Assembly: GCA_951406725.2 (NCBI GenBank)
Contig: OX597836.1
Coordinates: forward strand, 46,872,001-46,936,000
Reading direction: 5' to 3'
DNA length: 64,000 nt
Origin: Octopus vulgaris
Taxonomy: Eukaryota
Of the stretch, positions 8,888-60,724 are shown piece by piece. The translations under genes and the position numbers were made by a program. A model generated the notes under the pieces. It had not been told where the DNA came from and searched no databases. It saw only the letters and a list, made by a program, of their open reading frames with translations. The stretch's first letter is position 1. Each line of letters opens with the position of its first letter.

Positions 8888-8891
<4 letters not shown>

Positions 8892-9108
8892 GATAGATAA
8901 TCCAACCATGAAAACACAGAGAAAACACAACAACGTGAGGACGTGGAACAAGTATAGCGTTATTGGACGCTCAGGAAAGGAAGGAAAGAAAAAGGATTTA
9001 ACGTTTCGAGCGGAGCTCTTCGTCAGAAACATAGGAAAAGGAAAGATCCAAAGAAGGGAAGACGGAGGAAAAAAATTGCCAACGGTACACATGCGGTCAC
9101 ATTTTGAA
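8888..9108 (-). mobile_element. Short HHR-bearing element between (TA)n tracts; minimal HHR at 8996-9030
   Basis: Minus strand GUUU CUGACGA A GAGC-UCC-GCUC GAAA CG UU^ AAAU, with palindromic stem III AACGUU. Confidence 0.7.
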
Positions 9109-9396
9109 CATATATATATATATATATATTTAGCAATTAAGGACAACTACTTAATAAGGAAAACTTAACAAGAAATTGTCAGGTAGATAGCGTGAAAACC
9201 TCATAAGAGAATAAATTTCGAAAATAATTATTTCTTATTGAACATATTAATTTATATATAGAGGGCATTATACATACATGCCAGAGGGCATTATACATAC
9301 ATGCCACACGCTAAGAGGGACAATTAGTCATTTCTACCAAAAATATTACTAATCCCACCGAATGCAATTTTTCAAAGTAAGACATTTAAAAAATAT

Positions 9397-9444
9397 AGAC
9401 CTGTATCACAGTGATTTCATACTTACGTATTCATCAGCAGGCCT
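9397..9444 (-). ncRNA. Canonical type I hammerhead ribozyme in a ~360-bp element (9130-9493) flanked by (TA)n
   Basis: AGGCCUG CUGAUGA AUAC-GUAA-GUAU GAAA UCAC-U-GUGA UA^ CAGGUCU. All core residues present, 7-bp stem I, GNRA-capped stem II, near-palindromic stem III. Confidence 0.85.
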
Positions 9445-9490
9445 GAATGTATCATAAATAAACGACCCTGCCCCGCTTAAGCCGATCAGC

Positions 9491-9548
<58 letters not shown>

Positions 9549-9549
9549 C

Positions 9550-9594
<45 letters not shown>

Positions 9595-9992: not shown

Positions 9993-10754
9993 GCTACTGC
10001 TACTACTAGCAGTAGTAGCAGGTTTGGCGATAGTTGCCTCTCCTCTGCTACAAGTATTTTAATGTGGTTGGTATTTGGTTGTTTCTTTGTTGACGCGTTC
10101 TGGCTAACTTGTGTAATCGCTACATTAATATAAATGAAAATTTAAAAAATTTGATTGTTTCTAACTTGCACTTGTGTCTATATCTTCACTGAGTTCTATT
10201 TGTCTCTATTACCGTATTTTAATTTGCGATCCATGTAGAGTGATGCGTTATCTTAAGGAACTTAAGTTTGTCCAATGTAGTTTTCTTCACATCATAAGAA
10301 TATGGTTGCATAGATTGCGTTTTCAGACGCACAGATGAAGTTATTTATTATTGCGAAGTTGTCCTTACTTGAAACGGATTTATGATACGAAAGAACGTCA
10401 GATTAAAACATAAACCACTGTGGAGTCTTATATTTTTATTGTTGGACCTGTTGGTATTGTGTGAAGTTTGGCCTTTGTTGGTATTTTTTCATTCATTTGG
10501 GTTGTCTTTTGTATTTATGAAGGCAAGTTTTTGGAGGATTTGATTACGTCCGGTGTCCTTTTTCAGTGTTCTGGTGTATGATGTTGTAGGCGTCATTGTT
10601 TTAGGATTGTGGGCGATGAGAGGTATGACCTTCGATTTTGTTTTATTTGCCTTAGTTCTCGGATACTGAATTTCTTGGTTCATTGTATTCCATTTTGGAT
10701 CAAATACGGCGGGTAATTCCTGTCAAAGAGTGTATCATTAAGTTCTTGGAGTCT

Positions 10755-10925
10755 GCGCGGCAACTTGGACAAATATCTTTTACTATAGTTCCAGGACGAC
10801 CAAAGCCTTGTGAGTGGAATTGGGAGACGGAAACTGTAAGAAGCCTGTCTTGTGTGTGTGTGTACATGTATGTGCCTATGCATGAGTGCTTGTGTTTGTC
10901 CTCCACCACTGCTTGCATCAAATGC
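10755..10925 (+). mobile_element. SINE family A internal fragment
   Basis: gaccaaagccttgtgagtggaattgggagacggaaactg; nearly identical to 13091-13290. Confidence 0.75.
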
Positions 10926-11100
10926 TAATACGCGGTTCTTTTTGGCTAGATGATAAAATACATTTATTCTGGAATGTCCCGGATAATGTTTGGAGTCCGT
11001 AGGTTTACAGTGAATATCCGTCTCTCTTTGGTTGTTGGTATTCTTTATCAGGATGTCTAAAATGAGAGTTGGTTACGCCCATATTTCATAGTGAATTGTA

Positions 11101-11318
11101 CGAGGGCTGCTGAGAAGTTCCGGGTTTTTCGGTAAAAGAAAATACAGGAGGATCATTTTAATTAGGATTTTATTCAACACATTACCTTCTCAGATTCACA
11201 CAGTTATTGCAGTGATCCTTCGCGTTTTCTAATCCCCGAAAAAGAACTCGGAAGGTTGAACCTCCAATCAGGCCTTTAAAGATACCCTTAAAGCCAGAAA
11301 CATTTTAGCATCCGCTCG
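11101..11318. mobile_element. Mariner-type MITE
   Basis: TA-cgagggctgctgagaagttcc ... aaacattttagcatccgctcg imperfect TIRs, non-coding interior. Confidence 0.6.
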
Positions 11319-12772
11319 TGTAATTTTATTAATTCCGCCGAGGAGTGTTTCAAATTCTTTTAATTTCTCTGCCTCATTCCATAGAATGAAGCAATCGTCG
11401 AGGTACATTCTCAATCTTTTTGTATATATTTAAAGAAAGAGTTTCCATGATTTCGTAGTGATTTTTTAATGTATCGTAGTCTCTAGGCAGCCCCGTAACT
11501 AGATTTGCAACGGTGAGGATTGTTTGCATCCCCAGCACACTCCCAGATTTCTTTCGTGAAAAGTTGTCATTGAACAGTAAATGATTATCCCTTTGAATAA
11601 ACTTCAGTCTTCCTATGATTAATTCTTTTTTTTTTATGCGATGGTGAAGCTCACCTGTATATTTATTCAACCAGAATTGACTGGCTTCAGTTCTTAAGTC
11701 TTGATGAATATTTGAATAGAGATTTGTTACATCGAAAAAAGCCGTCAAATTGTTTTTCTTTGACTATTTTCGTAAGATCTGTCTGTGTGTGTGTGTGTGT
11801 GTGTGCACGCGTGCGTGTGCATGTGTGTCTGTGTGTGTGCGTGCGTGTGTGTGCATGCGTGCGGGCAGAGTACGTATGTGTGTATGTATGTGCGTGCGTG
11901 CGCGTATGCATGCGCGCGCGCGTGTGTATGTAAGCAACTGAATGTAAAGACATCAGTGCAAACAAGAAGGAAGCAATAAAAATGGTATTCGATATACAAC
12001 TTAGAGTTTCAAGATATACATGTGGTGAAAAAATGGTTAGATATTTCTGCATATAAACAAAAATAGGTGAAAATGCACAAAACATTAAGAGAGTTATTGC
12101 AATTTTTTAAGAAAAGTTAAAGAGACAAAAAAGGTGTAACATCATATACAAATGCATTGAATTTTTTTTCTTAAATTAAGTAATAGCTTTCATCCAGGTA
12201 TCAGGATTTTTCAAATGATTTTGTAGCTGGACAGGAAAATCTGTTTATAGTGATCACAAAATATAAATTTGATTTATGCCATAACATGCTGTGGATGCTT
12301 ACATAACTACATCGGATAGACGGGATTAATGCTTCGCAGGAGTGTAACGGTGCACAAGCAAGAAATAAATAATGAAAAAAAATCAGGTAAATTCCATTAA
12401 GTGAACATATAGCAATATGTGCTGGAATGGTGCCTCCAAAAGTTGAAGAACAGAACAGCAAAGAATAAAAGAAAAAAGACAGTTTATTACGCAATCTAAA
12501 CCTTGAGTGAATGGTTAATAAACAATTTCTTCGACTTAGGGGTAATTTCAGATACGCTTGCATGGATGCAAACACAAATATTCACATATTATTTGGATTT
12601 GGATATATACAATATATCATCAATTTGTGTGTATGTATGTATGTATGTGTGTGTGTATGTGTGTGTGCGTGCGTGCGTCTGTGTGAGTGCACGCATGTGT
12701 CTGCGCATGTTCGAATAAATATATGCACGTATGTATATATATGTCTTTCTATACCTTATAAAGACTCTCTCT

Positions 12773-19597: not shown

Positions 19598-20889
19598 CGA
19601 GGGGCGTTCAATAAGTAATGCCCCTGACCCACTTCCCATAGCAGTAGAGCAACGAAACATGGCACAGTTATTAGTCCTTGTGTACATAGGAACCACCCTG
19701 AGTTACGCATTTCTCCCATCGTTTGATACAGCTCTGGAGACCGTTTTTGTAGAAGACCCCAGCTTGGTCCTCCAACCACGACGTGACTTCAGAAATCAAG
19801 GCTGCATCATCTGGGAAACGCTTTCCTTTCAAAAACAACTTCATGGCTGGGAAGAGGTGAACATTAGACGGTGCAAGGTCAGGAGAGTAGGGGGATGGGA
19901 GAGGAGTTCATAGCCGCACGCCTCTGCTTCTGATCTGGCGACACGCGAGTTGTGGACCGGAGCGTTGTCTTGCAGGAGGAGGATGCCTTTGCTGATCTTG
20001 CCCCGCCTCTTGATTTTGATAGCTTCTCTTAATTTACTCAAAAGTGAAGCATAATAGGCTCCTGTAATTGTGGTATCCTTTGCCAGGAAATCTGTCATCA
20101 CTACTCCATCCTGGTCCCAGAAGACTGTGAGCATGACCTTGCCAGCGGAGGGCTGCACCCTCGCCTTCTTTGGAGGAGGTGAGTCACGGTGCTTTCACTA
20201 CATTGACTGGGGTTTGGTCTCTGGATCATAGTGATGGACCCAGGTTTCATCCTGTGTAATCAGTCTTTTGAAAAATTTTGACTCATCTTCTTGGCACATC
20301 TCCAAATTCATACTCGAGCACTCGACGCGTTCTTGCTTCTGGAAAGGTATGAGCAACCTGGGAATCCATCTGGCAGACACCTTTTGCATATGCAAATGGT
20401 CATGAATGATAGTTTCCACAGACCCGGTACTAATCTTGACCTCATGGGCTATTTAGTGAATAGTTATGCATCGATCTTCCAAAATGGCAGCCCCAACTTG
20501 ACGGACAGATGCCTCATCAATGGCAGAAGTAGCGATACCAGATCTGGGAGCTGTTTCCACAGAGTTCCGACCATGTTTGAATTCACGATGCCAGCGTTTT
20601 ACAAGGTCATATGATGGGGAATCATCACCATAAGTTACTTTGATTTCATCCAAAGTCTCCCGTGGTGTGCGTCCTTTCAAATACAAAAACCGGATCACTG
20701 CTCGACACTCAACAGGCTCCATTTCACACTTGACTCAGTTCAAACACCTGTAAATCGGAAACCACAATTAGTTCAGAGCTGTAATTTGCCACTTATTCTA
20801 GAGAGATATAAATAATTGCACATGCAACATTTCAGCTAGATCAAACAACTGGAAGTGGGTCAGAGGCATTACTTATTGAACGCCCCTCG
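19598..20889 (-). mobile_element. Full-length mariner (DD34D) transposon
   Basis: 39-bp TIRs cgaggggcgttcaataagtaatgcc(c/t)ctgacccacttcc with one mismatch; TA on both sides. Confidence 0.97.
19671..20722 (-). pseudogene. Mariner transposase with two stops and one frameshift
   Basis: RAVIRFL, ARWIPRLL, TQDETWVHHYDPE, KVMLTVFWD, LLQDNAPVH, HPP/SPDLAPSD; D-D spacing 34. Confidence 0.95.
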
Positions 20890-51856: not shown

Positions 51857-54800
51857 ATGTCTTTGTCAAGGAGAAAAGTGGATACAGAGTATAGATTATT
51901 TCGAGAAAGTGGTCCTTTTCTTATTTATTCGTGTAATTGAATGGCAAACCTGTGTGCTTGCTGTTTTCCCAGCAGGTTTCGGTACTCAAAGAATATAACA
52001 TTCGGCGCTACTATGAGACTCATCATGCTGACAAATACAATAACTTGCAAGGACAAATGAGAAGAGAGAAGGTCAATAAATTGTTGGCGAATCTGAAGAG
52101 ACAACAGTCTGCTTTAACTCAAAGCCGAGATATCAGTCAGGCAGCAGTAAGAGTTAGCTACCTTGTTGCTAGAGAAGTAGCATTTGCAGCAAAGCCGTAC
52201 TGTGAGGGTGAGTTCGTGAAAACATGCATATTGAAGGTTACAGAAATTGTATGCCCTGAGAAGTGGACAGAATTTTGCCCATATTAGCCTTACGAGAAAC
52301 GCTGTGATAGATAGGATTTCAGCTCTTTTGGCAGATTTTGACGGGCAACTGAAGCACAAAGTCACGTCATCTGTTGCCTTTTCAGTTGCAATTGGTGACA
52401 GCACGGACATTACGGGTGTTCATCATCATCATTCATCATTGTTCGACCGTGGTCGAGACAATGGAATTTACCATGCTACGCCAGACTTCACGGTCCATCA
52501 TGGCATTACGGAGGTCCTGTTGCTGGATGCCTGTATCCCTGGAGATTACATCAGGGTAGGAGAGTGTGCGCCCTCTGGTATTGCGAGTAGATGGCTTCCA
52601 GAGGAGAAGAGTAGAAATTACTTCTTTTTCAGCTCTACAACAATGTCCAGCAAACTGGACTCTCCTACCTTTCACAAGAGATGACACAGGTGGTAGTTTC
52701 CCATATATTTGCATTTTGGTTGGATGGCGCTTCCACGAGAGATTTTGAGCTCTCATAAGGAGGCGAGTGTAAGTTCCATTCAACCGCCTCTCAAGCTTCT
52801 TTGATAACGTCCAGGTTTCTGAGCTATATAGTAGAATTGGTTCGACTGTAGCTTTGAAGATTTCAAGTTTGAAGTCTCTACTTAGATTTGATGACCAGAT
52901 CTTATGCATGTCATTACAGGCTGACCAGGCCATACCCTTTCTAGTTAGAAAGTCTTTTCCAGATGATGATATGTATGACCCAAGATATTAATAATCAGAA
53001 ACCATATTTAAGGGCGCATTGTTGAGAGTATGGATGATGCAATCACTGTTGGACAGGCACTTGTTTATGTATTCAGTTTTGGCCTCATTGAGGTAAAGAC
53101 CTACACAATTTGAGGCTTGTTCAAGAGATTGTAAAAGAGACTGGGCATTGGAGAGAGAATCACTGATAAGAGCGATGTCGTCAGCAAAGTCAGTGTCTGT
53201 CAAGTACTTAGCTGGGTGTCTGGAACTTCTTCTTGGTTTTATTTCAAAGCCCTTGCCAGAGATGGTATCAACTGACATACGTAGCACATAATCAACAACA
53301 ATGATGAAAAGAAATGGGGCGAGTGTGTCTCCCTGCAGTATTTCGGCTTTGATTGAGAAAGATGATGTTTCTCCGTCAGGGGTTAAGATGGTTGAAGACG
53401 TATCTGTGTAGAGGACCTTGATGGCAGAAATGATTTTGTCTGGTATCCCATAGAGCTTAAGGATTTCAAACATCTTGTACCTATCTACTGAATCGAACGC
53501 TTTAGAAAAGTCTACAAATACCATTGCAAGATCGCGATTAAATGCTTTTGATTCTTCAATAAGTCTGCGTAGGCATAGTATCTGGCTCAGCGTTGAGCGC
53601 CCATGTCTGGATCCATTTTGGTTCTTTCGGAGCAAAGGTTCAACAAAAAGGACAAGACGATTTAGGATCAGTTTGTTGTACAGTTTTGCAGCAATTGACA
53701 TTAGAGATATACCCCTGTAGTTGGTGACGAGGGATAAATCGCCTTTTTTGGGTATTGGAATGATTTGAGATTGGTGCCAAATCTTTGGAGCGACAAAGGT
53801 TGAAAGTGTGTGGTTGCAGAGGTTGAGCAAAAGTGTGTGAAATCTATAATCCTTCCAAATTACAGCTGGGATGTTGTCGGGACCAAATGCTTTCGAGGCT
53901 TTTAGTTGCTTGGTGGCTGCTGTTAGTTCAAATATGGTAAAAGGGGAGGTGTTGATGTCCAGCGTGTCTGATATAGGCACACTTGGAAGAGTGGGGTTAT
54001 CAGGGATTTTGGCATTCTTCCCAAGGAGGTTTTTAAAATGGGTTGACCAATTTTCTAAACGCTTCTTAGCTGATCCCCCTTTAATTCTAATTGATGACCC
54101 AGAATTTTTGCCTGATAGGTCTTTGATGGATTTCCAGGCGAGATGGTGTTTTTCACTAATGTGCTCTTTGGATAGTTTACTAATTTTGCCATTGATAAAG
54201 TCGACCTCGGCGTTCAAGTAAGCCTCATCAAGATTCTTCTTGGCAGCTATGAGTTGGATCTTCAGTGACTGGGATGGAGAACGGTGGTAAGCTAGTGATA
54301 TAGACGATGACATTTGGGGAATTAGAAGGTTTGTCTGGCCCCTACTCTTACGTAACTGGCCATATTCATTCGTGGTGTAGAGGAGATTCTGACCACCACC
54401 AAGGAGTTCCTGAAGTTGGTTCCTATGATGGGCACCACGCCAGCAAATGGCATTTTCAGTTTTTTTGTTGTAGCGCTGGACAGGGTCGGAGTGTATTGGG
54501 CCCGTGCTGTCAGCGTGGCTACAGATGGCGCTCCATCAATAATTGAGAAAAAAACAGGTGTTGTGACGCAGTTCAGAGAGAAAGTACAGACTGCAAATGG
54601 AGGACGTGATTTTTGGATATTCCATTGCATTTTGCACCAGGTGGCATTGTGTTGCAAGTAGTTTAAAATGGATCACATCATGGAAGTGGTTGTCCGAACT
54701 GTTAATTTCATCCGAACAAGAGGTCTGGGTCACCGTCAGTTTGACAATCTTCTCAGCGACATAGGCGTTACCTATGGCTGGCCATATCACACCGAGATAA

Positions 54801-60034: not shown

Positions 60035-60139
60035 CTAGAAATAGGTTGCTCTGAAGTAGAGAGTAATGCCCATATGTGTTAGAAAGATCGATTGATCTCT
60101 TCCGTCCTTGTCAAGGGGAGTGCTAACCGTCTCTCCTTT
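60035..60139 (-). pseudogene. U6atac: U6atac minor-spliceosome snRNA retrocopy, 5'-truncated
   Basis: Minus strand AAAGGAGAGAcGGUUAGCACUCCCCUUGACAAGGAcGGAAGAG...GGCAUU...CUACUUC matches the conserved U6atac 5' domain (AAGGAGAG box, AGC triad, ISL); followed by an A tract. Confidence 0.88.
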
Positions 60140-60724
60140 TTTGGTTCAATAGTTTATGATAGATAACACCCTTCATATCTCACCAAACACAGAGCAAAAT
60201 TTTTTGCGAATAGAGTCTGGGAATAGAATCTCCCCTTTTCATTGGGTGCCAGCAACTGTCGTATTCGTTGGATATGATTATAAGCGACTCACATTCCCTC
60301 ACTAAAGGTTTGGTAGTAAGTCCGCTCTTCAATGACCAACTAAGGGCGACACTCTAAGTCAAGAAACCGTCAGATGATGAAGGACCTACAGGACAGGAGT
60401 AGACATTATTAGTTGTTTATGAGGGTGTTTTATATTTTGCTAATTCTTAAGCAGTTTGGTTTGGATTTTCCTCAACTACTGCTCTTAGAAGCTCGATATT
60501 AACGACACTTGATCATCGGAAAACAGCGAGTGAAAAATTTTCCAGGCGAAACTAGCCAATCCCTCATTAGCATATCCAGACACAGTAATGTTTATTTCCG
60601 TAGAAGGAATATTCCTTACAGCTTCCATTGTTGAAAAGCCCCTTTTTAATTCATACAACATGCAGTGTCGCGTGTGGTTCTGATTTAAACTAACTTTAAA
60701 AGGTAGAATCCAAACGCGAATTAG

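What the first reader, a model, noticed from the sequence alone, without database searches (positions are those of the whole stretch)
9130..9493. Textbook-intact hammerhead in a (TA)n-flanked element
Seen: AGGCCUG-CUGAUGA-AUAC(GUAA)GUAU-GAAA-UCAC(U)GUGA-UA^CAGGUCU at 9397-9444 (minus). Every core nucleotide is present and all three stems pair. It is on the same strand as the adjacent HHR element (8888-9108) and the decayed PLE about 600 bp away. The unit also has a short direct repeat (agagggcattatacatacatgcc x2). Inference: the best candidate for a currently active ribozyme; if a minus-strand transcript crosses it, the pre-mRNA would be cut.
Basis: partly seen in the sequence, partly recalled or inferred. 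Interest (0 to 1): 0.7.

Follow-up and report, generated by a model that had tools for sequence, protein, structure and literature searches.

The report
Lone truncated copy of hammerhead retrozyme
The hammerhead ribozyme motif is real, but it lies in a cut-short, single copy of a young 476-base repeat family that is likely pasted into TA repeats by Penelope-type transposon enzymes, so it is probably an ordinary member of a known kind of genomic parasite, predicted to cut poorly on its own, and no host gene that it would cut was found.

Summary
The type I hammerhead at 9397-9444 (-) is real: 0 in 300 shuffles, and relatives show compensatory pairs. It is not special to this place. Window 9128-9491 is 0.76 of a 476-bp non-coding unit: 98 exact ribozyme copies, 666 by a looser pattern, as solos, tandem arrays (up to 31) and back-to-back arms, loci about 2% apart. 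This is a non-LTR retrozyme. Its insertions carry a Penelope-type footprint: (TA)n targets (97 of 109 ends), 5' truncation, inverted arms and two fixed 3' ends. 33 of 46 two-armed loci have one of each end, 0 have A+A, and the ends are about 120 nt apart against 38 nt in intact Penelope-like elements here. 5' ends ignore the cleavage site and arms share private mutations, which fits copying from one circular or uncut RNA. The scan has already reported this architecture for other retrozyme families in this genome.

The parts
9128..9491 (-). 5'-truncated solo copy of a 476-bp non-LTR retrozyme unit (unit positions u389-u476 + u1-u276, numbering from the cleavage site; u277-u388 missing; no inverted arm)
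9397..9444 (-). type I hammerhead ribozyme motif: helix I 7 bp, helix II 4 bp + GUAA loop, near-palindromic helix III
9403..9404 (-). predicted self-cleavage site (AUA^C); defines u476/u1
   Evidence: position inferred from hammerhead consensus
9260..9306 (-). 23-nt direct repeat x2, part of the family unit, directly 5' of end A; copy number differs among family members
9244..9261 (-). internal TA-like run marking alternative 3' end A (u143-u160), used by other copies, read through in this one
9131..9250 (-). about 120-nt 'tail' between 3' ends A and B
9128..9131 (-). 3' end B (u273-u276), joined to host (TA)n
9492..9561 (.). (TA)n target microsatellite, 5' side of the insertion
9110..9127 (.). 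(TA)n target microsatellite, 3' side of the insertion
8888..9108 (-). neighbour, not part of the element: separate, older, high-copy element with a minimal hammerhead
10044..11748 (-). neighbour, not part of the element: decayed Penelope-like RT + GIY-YIG fragments (33-52% identical to an intact 780-aa ORF)

Best explanation
The hammerhead lies in a 5'-truncated, single-ribozyme copy of a young 476-bp tandem repeat family (a non-LTR retrozyme) that was likely inserted into a (TA)n tract by the reverse transcriptase-endonuclease of a Penelope-like element. Shown: unit, copy number, tandem and inverted arrangement, TA targets, two fixed 3' ends, covariation in helices I and II. Inferred: tandem loci are transcribed; adjacent ribozymes, probably pairing as dimers through helix III, cut out 476-nt monomers that would be ligated to circles; a Penelope-like enzyme nicks both strands of a TA tract and starts reverse transcription inside the RNA at end B on one strand and end A on the other, running through the ribozyme site for up to several turns, which gives back-to-back arms. 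The window copy is a one-armed product started at end B that stopped 88 nt past the cleavage site. With one ribozyme it cannot release a monomer and is predicted to cut a read-through transcript only weakly.
For: Family: 40 of 40 scored candidates gave 96-100% full or near-full matches; 98 exact 46-mers, control 0; 666 by a looser pattern, with a 31-unit array. Unit 476 bp, GC 33%, longest ATG ORF 39/42 aa. 63 loci: 97 of 109 outer 3' ends fall at A (46) or B (51); of 46 two-armed loci 33 are A+B, 1 B+B, 0 A+A, 12 have one other end; 13 of 19 further loci are two-armed, 12 A+B and 1 with the end at u121. (TA)5 within 30 nt of 97 of 109 3' ends against 282 of 4760 flank windows. Intact RT+GIY-YIG elements are abundant, also end in (TA)n and show two ends 38 nt apart. 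5' ends near the cleavage site: 4 of 113, expected 4.7. Divergence 0.62% within an arm, 0.76% between arms, 2.0% between loci; 18 private changes fixed in all covering units, 12 of them in both arms, in 11 loci. Circular unit folds at -130.8 against -89.5+-6.3 kcal/mol, 0 of 60 shuffles. Covariation C-G/U-A (12/11 of 23 variants) in helix I and A-U/G-U/G-C (16/4/3) in helix II.
Against: No cleavage, circle or transcript was observed; the runs laid are contigs whose RNA status is a guess. No autonomous element shares sequence with the unit: none in 16 PLE 3' regions at E<0.5, none contiguous with the unit in the loci screened; the 120-nt tail does not match their 38-nt tail. 'Private' is judged against 63 loci out of several hundred, and 83 private changes are unshared. 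Long arrays are nearly uniform and show block patterns, so a linear multimer transcript or DNA-level expansion can mimic a circle. The active fold is rare in the nearest-neighbour ensemble (p 0.0008). In the 2026 preprint 8 of 9 dimers tested did not cleave, and the lizard PLE inserts without ribozyme cleavage. Loci were partly chosen on end B or on an exact ribozyme.
Confidence: 0.75

Rival explanations
1. Same family and same Penelope-type mobilisation, but the template is an uncut linear multimer transcript of a uniform source array; the ribozyme is weak or acts late, and circles play no part in insertion.
For: A near-uniform 31-unit array exists. Unprocessed RNA is the main substrate of the lizard Poseidon element and ribozyme mutants still insert (PMC11167929). 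Helix III is weak as a monomer. No 5'-end excess at the cleavage site fits this equally.
Against: Locus-private changes shared by every unit of both arms in 11 loci; strong fold of the circular monomer; covariation and an invariant core among subfamilies (the core was fixed by the search pattern); published animal retrozymes give abundant circles (PMC7229834).
Confidence: 0.3
2. One reading: a locally active monomeric ribozyme that cuts a host minus-strand pre-mRNA.
For: Core and helices intact; helices I and II keep pair probabilities of 0.54-0.76 in the 364-nt context; published invertebrate retrozyme ribozymes with short helix III cleave as monomers (coral 0.8/min, mussel 0.1/min).
Against: No host exon found; helix III pair probability 0.02-0.04; no conserved loop 1 / loop 2 contact identified; the copy is a recent insertion like 25 other single-ribozyme loci of 63, with no sign of selection at this place.
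Confidence: 0.1
3. The unit is the pseudo-LTR of an autonomous Penelope-like element, and the window copy belongs with the decayed PLE 550 bp upstream or with the neighbouring hammerhead element.
For: Same strand and proximity; pLTR-like tandem/inverted layout; Xenopus retrozymes are homologous to pLTRs (preprint).
Against: No similarity of the unit to the rest of the window, to 19 other copies of the neighbour or to 16 PLE 3' regions; the unit continues into itself, not into an ORF; it is far younger than either neighbour.
Confidence: 0.05

Closest known systems
Metazoan non-LTR retrozymes (Cervera and de la Pena 2020, PMC7229834: passages and Discussion seen; Li, Clavereau and Pollet 2026, 10.64898/2026.07.22.740005: parts 1-3 of 5 read)
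   Same: Non-coding, low-GC tandem unit with one type I hammerhead; monomers, dimers and multimers; short helix III suited to dimers; co-occurrence with Penelope-like elements.
   Different: 476-481 bp is just above the 150-450 bp of the 2020 paper, within the 51-972 bp of the preprint. The text seen describes neither inverted arms, TA targeting nor two fixed 3' ends, and no cephalopod family. No homology to a pLTR was found here, unlike 21 Xenopus TE matches.
EN+ Penelope-like elements and their non-autonomous derivatives (Craig et al. 2021, PMC8557442: passages; Frangieh et al. 2024, PMC11167929: parts 1-2 of 4 read)
   Same: 5' truncation, partial tandems, inverted 5'-truncated arm, optional tail at one end, AT-rich or (TA)n targets, internal start of reverse transcription downstream of the ribozyme, both strands extended.
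   Different: No ORF; tail about 120 nt rather than 30-40 nt (38 nt in the intact elements of this genome); canonical-sized hammerhead rather than the minimal or U3-A8 forms.
Newt / axolotl satellite hammerheads (as described in PMC7229834 and PMC4209133, passages)
   Same: Weak, near-palindromic helix III predicted to need a dimer.
   Different: Helix III here has 3-4 potential pairs, longer than the 1-2 bp amphibian forms, so some monomer activity is possible.

Membership tests
Type I hammerhead ribozyme | Core CUGANGA / GAAA / NUH with three helices, helix I open | tested here: met
   0 of 300 shuffles
Type I hammerhead ribozyme | Covariation supporting the helices | tested here: met
   3 pairs with double changes, 96.2% of 345 cells paired, slid controls 18-45%; helix III was fixed by the search pattern and cannot count; the pair-count measure was reached by 91 of 500 shuffles
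Type I hammerhead ribozyme | Match to an Rfam hammerhead model | tested here: not met
   none at gathering or E<=10
Type I hammerhead ribozyme | Loop 1 / loop 2 tertiary contact | tested here: inconclusive
   no stable extension of helix I in folds; mussel retrozymes also lack the usual contacts
Type I hammerhead ribozyme | Self-cleavage | not testable with these tools
   needs in vitro assay
Non-LTR retrozyme | Short tandem repeat with one type I HHR per unit | tested here: met
   family; the window copy itself is a truncated monomer
Non-LTR retrozyme | Non-coding, GC below 45-50%, dispersed young copies | tested here: met
Non-LTR retrozyme | Expressed as linear and circular monomer RNA | tested here: inconclusive
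   contigs of 4 guessed-RNA runs cover parts of the unit; contigs cannot show circles, ends or strand
Non-LTR retrozyme | Long target-site duplications when present | tested here: inconclusive
   flanks are (TA)n, so a duplication cannot be read
Penelope-like element (autonomous) | RT + GIY-YIG ORF between pLTRs | tested here: not met
Penelope-mobilised non-autonomous element | Partial tandem + inverted 5'-truncated arm | tested here: met
   46 of 63 loci, 13 of 19
Penelope-mobilised non-autonomous element | Optional tail at one end (30-40 bp in the literature) | tested here: met
   present, but about 120 nt; intact elements here 38 nt
Penelope-mobilised non-autonomous element | 3' similarity to an autonomous partner | tested here: not met
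   two intact families checked, 16 3' regions; other PLE families of this genome not checked

The most novel reading that the evidence does not exclude
A Penelope-like enzyme copies one 476-nt RNA circle from both nicked strands of a TA tract, starting at two fixed internal sites 120 nt apart (three times the known tail and unlike the partner's own), so that each insertion records one RNA molecule; this would be direct genomic evidence for rolling-circle reverse transcription of animal retrozymes and show that Penelope enzymes read start sites by structure in an RNA unrelated in sequence.
Probability: 0.4. Interest if true: 0.6.

Novelty: new member of a known kind. Interest (0 to 1): 0.36.

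Why it matters
The locus itself is ordinary: one truncated copy of a parasite family. The family is useful as a test system. How animal retrozymes are mobilised has been proposed (PMC7229834 Discussion; 2026 preprint) rather than shown; here the insertions carry the Penelope footprint, are young enough to read as single events, and coexist with intact candidate enzymes. The strict A+B pairing of ends gives a sharp prediction for an in vitro priming assay and bears on the unexplained Penelope 'tail'. Five searches of the library gave no paper on a cephalopod retrozyme or on twin priming in retrozymes; the library is incomplete and the supplements of PMC7229834 and of the preprint were not seen.

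Tried and rejected
Rfam: no hammerhead hit. Link to the neighbouring hammerhead element or decayed PLE: rejected; the neighbour also occurs in 11 of 89 retrozyme loci, but at varying distance and orientation. Autonomous partner: long-ORF scan of 60 loci found one intact PLE about 1 kb from an array, without similarity to the unit; 17 loci of two intact PLE families gave 16 3' regions, no match; 19 loci chosen on the end-B motif held no ORF joined to the unit. Host gene: 89 of 144 complex ORFs against Pfam, only transposon domains above cut-off; short exons would be missed, so this does not show an intergenic site. RNA cover of the window itself was not obtained, which leaves the pre-mRNA question open. 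No RNA holder on record was listed for the unit. Enrichment of 5' ends at the cleavage site: none. A>G excess among fixed private changes: not seen (3 of 18; T>C 6). Lower variation in the ribozyme (0.46% against 1.39%) was not used as evidence, because most loci were chosen on an exact ribozyme match. In one search, 7 of the first 30 loci were dropped as overlaps of others, and L051-L080 were replaced by wider cuts. Supplements: PMC7229834 unreadable; PMC4209133 2 files searched, 1 not, no cephalopod term.

Full report
Observation. My own descriptor found 5 loose hammerhead-like hits in the window; only this one has all three helices (7, 4 and 4 complementary pairs), and 300 dinucleotide shuffles of 56,900 nt gave 0 motifs even at I>=4, II>=3, III>=3. 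Rfam does not recognise it. The 23-nt repeat (9260-9306) and the (TA)n flanks are present. One detail is wrong as drawn: UCAC-U-GUGA would close a 1-nt loop, so a monomer has 3 pairs and a triloop. In ViennaRNA the active fold costs -8.2 against -12.1 kcal/mol for the optimum, helix III pairs have probability 0.02-0.04, helices I and II 0.54-0.76 in the 364-nt context, and the helix III strand gives -10.1 as a self-duplex against +0.8 as a hairpin. Such models leave out core tertiary contacts (own knowledge), so this argues for a dimer preference, not for inactivity.

The element. The window lies in a 2.8-Gb animal genome (G000; earlier scan notes call it a cephalopod, not tested here). The 364-nt piece has 96-100% matches on many contigs (58 matches from 40 scored of 1807 first-look candidates). 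Their flanks show that it is part of a longer unit that runs into itself: 476 bp between cleavage sites, GC 33%, longest ATG ORF 39 and 42 aa. The window holds u389-u476 + u1-u276 and lacks 112 nt. The exact 46-mer occurs 98 times, control 0; a looser pattern 666 times, including a 31-unit array with one inverted arm; the end-B 22-mer 558 times. Sister subfamilies at 84-96% have units of 459-481 bp. Among 23 distinct ribozyme variants, 96.2% of 345 cells pair, with C-G/U-A in helix I (12/11) and A-U/G-U/G-C in helix II (16/4/3); slid controls pair at 18-45%; 0 of 500 shuffles reach the covariation score but 91 of 500 reach the number of doubly changed pairs, and core and helix III were fixed by my pattern. 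The monomer folded as a circle is much more stable than shuffles (-130.8 against -89.5+-6.3, 0 of 60). This meets the sequence definition of a non-LTR retrozyme (PMC7229834; preprint 10.64898/2026.07.22.740005).

Insertion footprint. I mapped 63 distinct loci (23 of the first 30, the other 7 being overlaps, plus 40 wider cuts) on the unit. 46 consist of two arms joined at their 5' ends with both 3' ends pointing outward; junction offsets are mostly within a few bases. Of 109 outer 3' ends, 46 fall at u143-165 (A), 51 at u266-285 (B), 12 elsewhere. Of the 46 two-armed loci, 33 are A+B, 1 B+B, 0 A+A, 12 have one other end (some caused by a different number of 23-mers or a mapping artefact). The first 23 were biased to end B by my query; in the 40 others I count by hand 27 two-armed loci, 17 A+B, none A+A or B+B. 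A third set of 19, chosen on the end-B motif, has 13 two-armed loci, 12 A+B and one ending at u121. 97 of 109 ends have (TA)5 within 30 nt, against 5.9% of flank windows. Partial tandems, inverted 5'-truncated arms, an optional tail and microsatellite targets are the described Penelope signature (PMC8557442), and the tail corresponds to two internal start sites of reverse transcription with both DNA strands cut and extended (PMC11167929). This genome holds many intact 780-785-aa RT + GIY-YIG ORFs (97 scored matches; Pfam; the linker cysteine motif suggests the Neptune clade, my reading, not tested by a tree). They end in (TA)n and show two ends 38 nt apart, the inner one followed by a TA run as at end A. 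None shares sequence with the unit, so the partner is not named and the 120-nt tail is unexplained.

Template. 5' ends are spread over the unit; 4 of 113 lie within 10 nt of the cleavage site, 4.7 expected, so the templates were read through that site: circles or uncut multimers. Units differ by 0.62% within an arm, 0.76% between arms and 2.0% between loci. 18 changes absent from the other 62 loci are fixed in every unit that covers them, 12 in both arms (11 loci); 83 private changes are unshared. This shows one sequence variant per insertion and fits a single circle, but only 63 loci were compared, long arrays are nearly uniform, and two arrays show block patterns, so a linear multimer or DNA-level expansion is not excluded.

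Expression. No holder on record as RNA was listed. Contigs of four guessed-RNA runs cover 13-18 of 30 bins of a tandem locus. One contig (run X6, depth 9.2, a different organism code from X1-X4) has 8 A>G changes on the element strand at u216-u266, where genomic pieces show G in 0-8 of about 240: a weak hint of an edited sense transcript. RNA cover of the window was not obtained.

Neighbours. The hammerhead element at 8888-9108 is a separate, older family (other copies 91-94%, 3309 first-look candidates), TA-flanked and without similarity to the unit. The decayed PLE at 10044-11748 matches the intact ORF at 33-52% in five pieces; the unit matches nothing else in the window. Shared strand and proximity are best explained by repeated insertion into TA tracts. 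No host exon was found.

Verdict. A real hammerhead in a lone, truncated, very young copy of a retrozyme family: new member of a known kind. 26 of 63 loci hold a single ribozyme and 18 hold two or more on one strand; the latter, not this one, are the candidates for activity. My reading (family, two ends, circle test) was set down before I consulted earlier findings; these report the same architecture for other 359-495-bp families in this genome, none for this sequence. I took the 'twin-primed' wording from them and tested the edit-fixation idea on this family without support. They are not independent evidence and make the feature look general here rather than unique.

Noticed in passing
window 60037-60149 (-): U6atac snRNA match, 75.9 bits.
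   Followed up: no
window 8888-9108 (-): Separate high-copy TA-flanked element with a minimal, palindromic-helix-III hammerhead; no tandem partner seen in 20 loci.
   Followed up: partly
window about 27960-28015 (-): A third loose hammerhead-like motif (helix I 6 bp, no helix II).
   Followed up: no
L141:6462-8801 (-) and L142-L157: Two young intact Penelope-like families with U3-A8 variant hammerhead motifs about 90-110 nt before the inner 3' end and a 38-nt tail.
   Followed up: partly
L105:3415-7107: Three linked changes alternate with period 3 over seven units, as from a trimeric template or a block duplication.
   Followed up: partly
L136-L137: 31-unit, 15-kb array with one inverted arm; end A on the inverted arm, end B on the array.
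   Followed up: partly
L014:1509-1559 (run X6 contig): Cluster of 8 A>G changes on the element strand inside the tail region, possible A-to-I editing.
   Followed up: partly
L168:2480-3113: An older relative of the unit at 73-77% identity.
   Followed up: no
L156: Tandem PLE copies next to an assembly gap and an interstitial TTAGGG array.
   Followed up: no
window 52439-54535 (-); 19844-20734 (-): Non-LTR retrotransposon RT (515-aa frame) and mariner transposase fragments.
   Followed up: no
window 30003-36972: 7-kb (TA)n-rich array.
   Followed up: no
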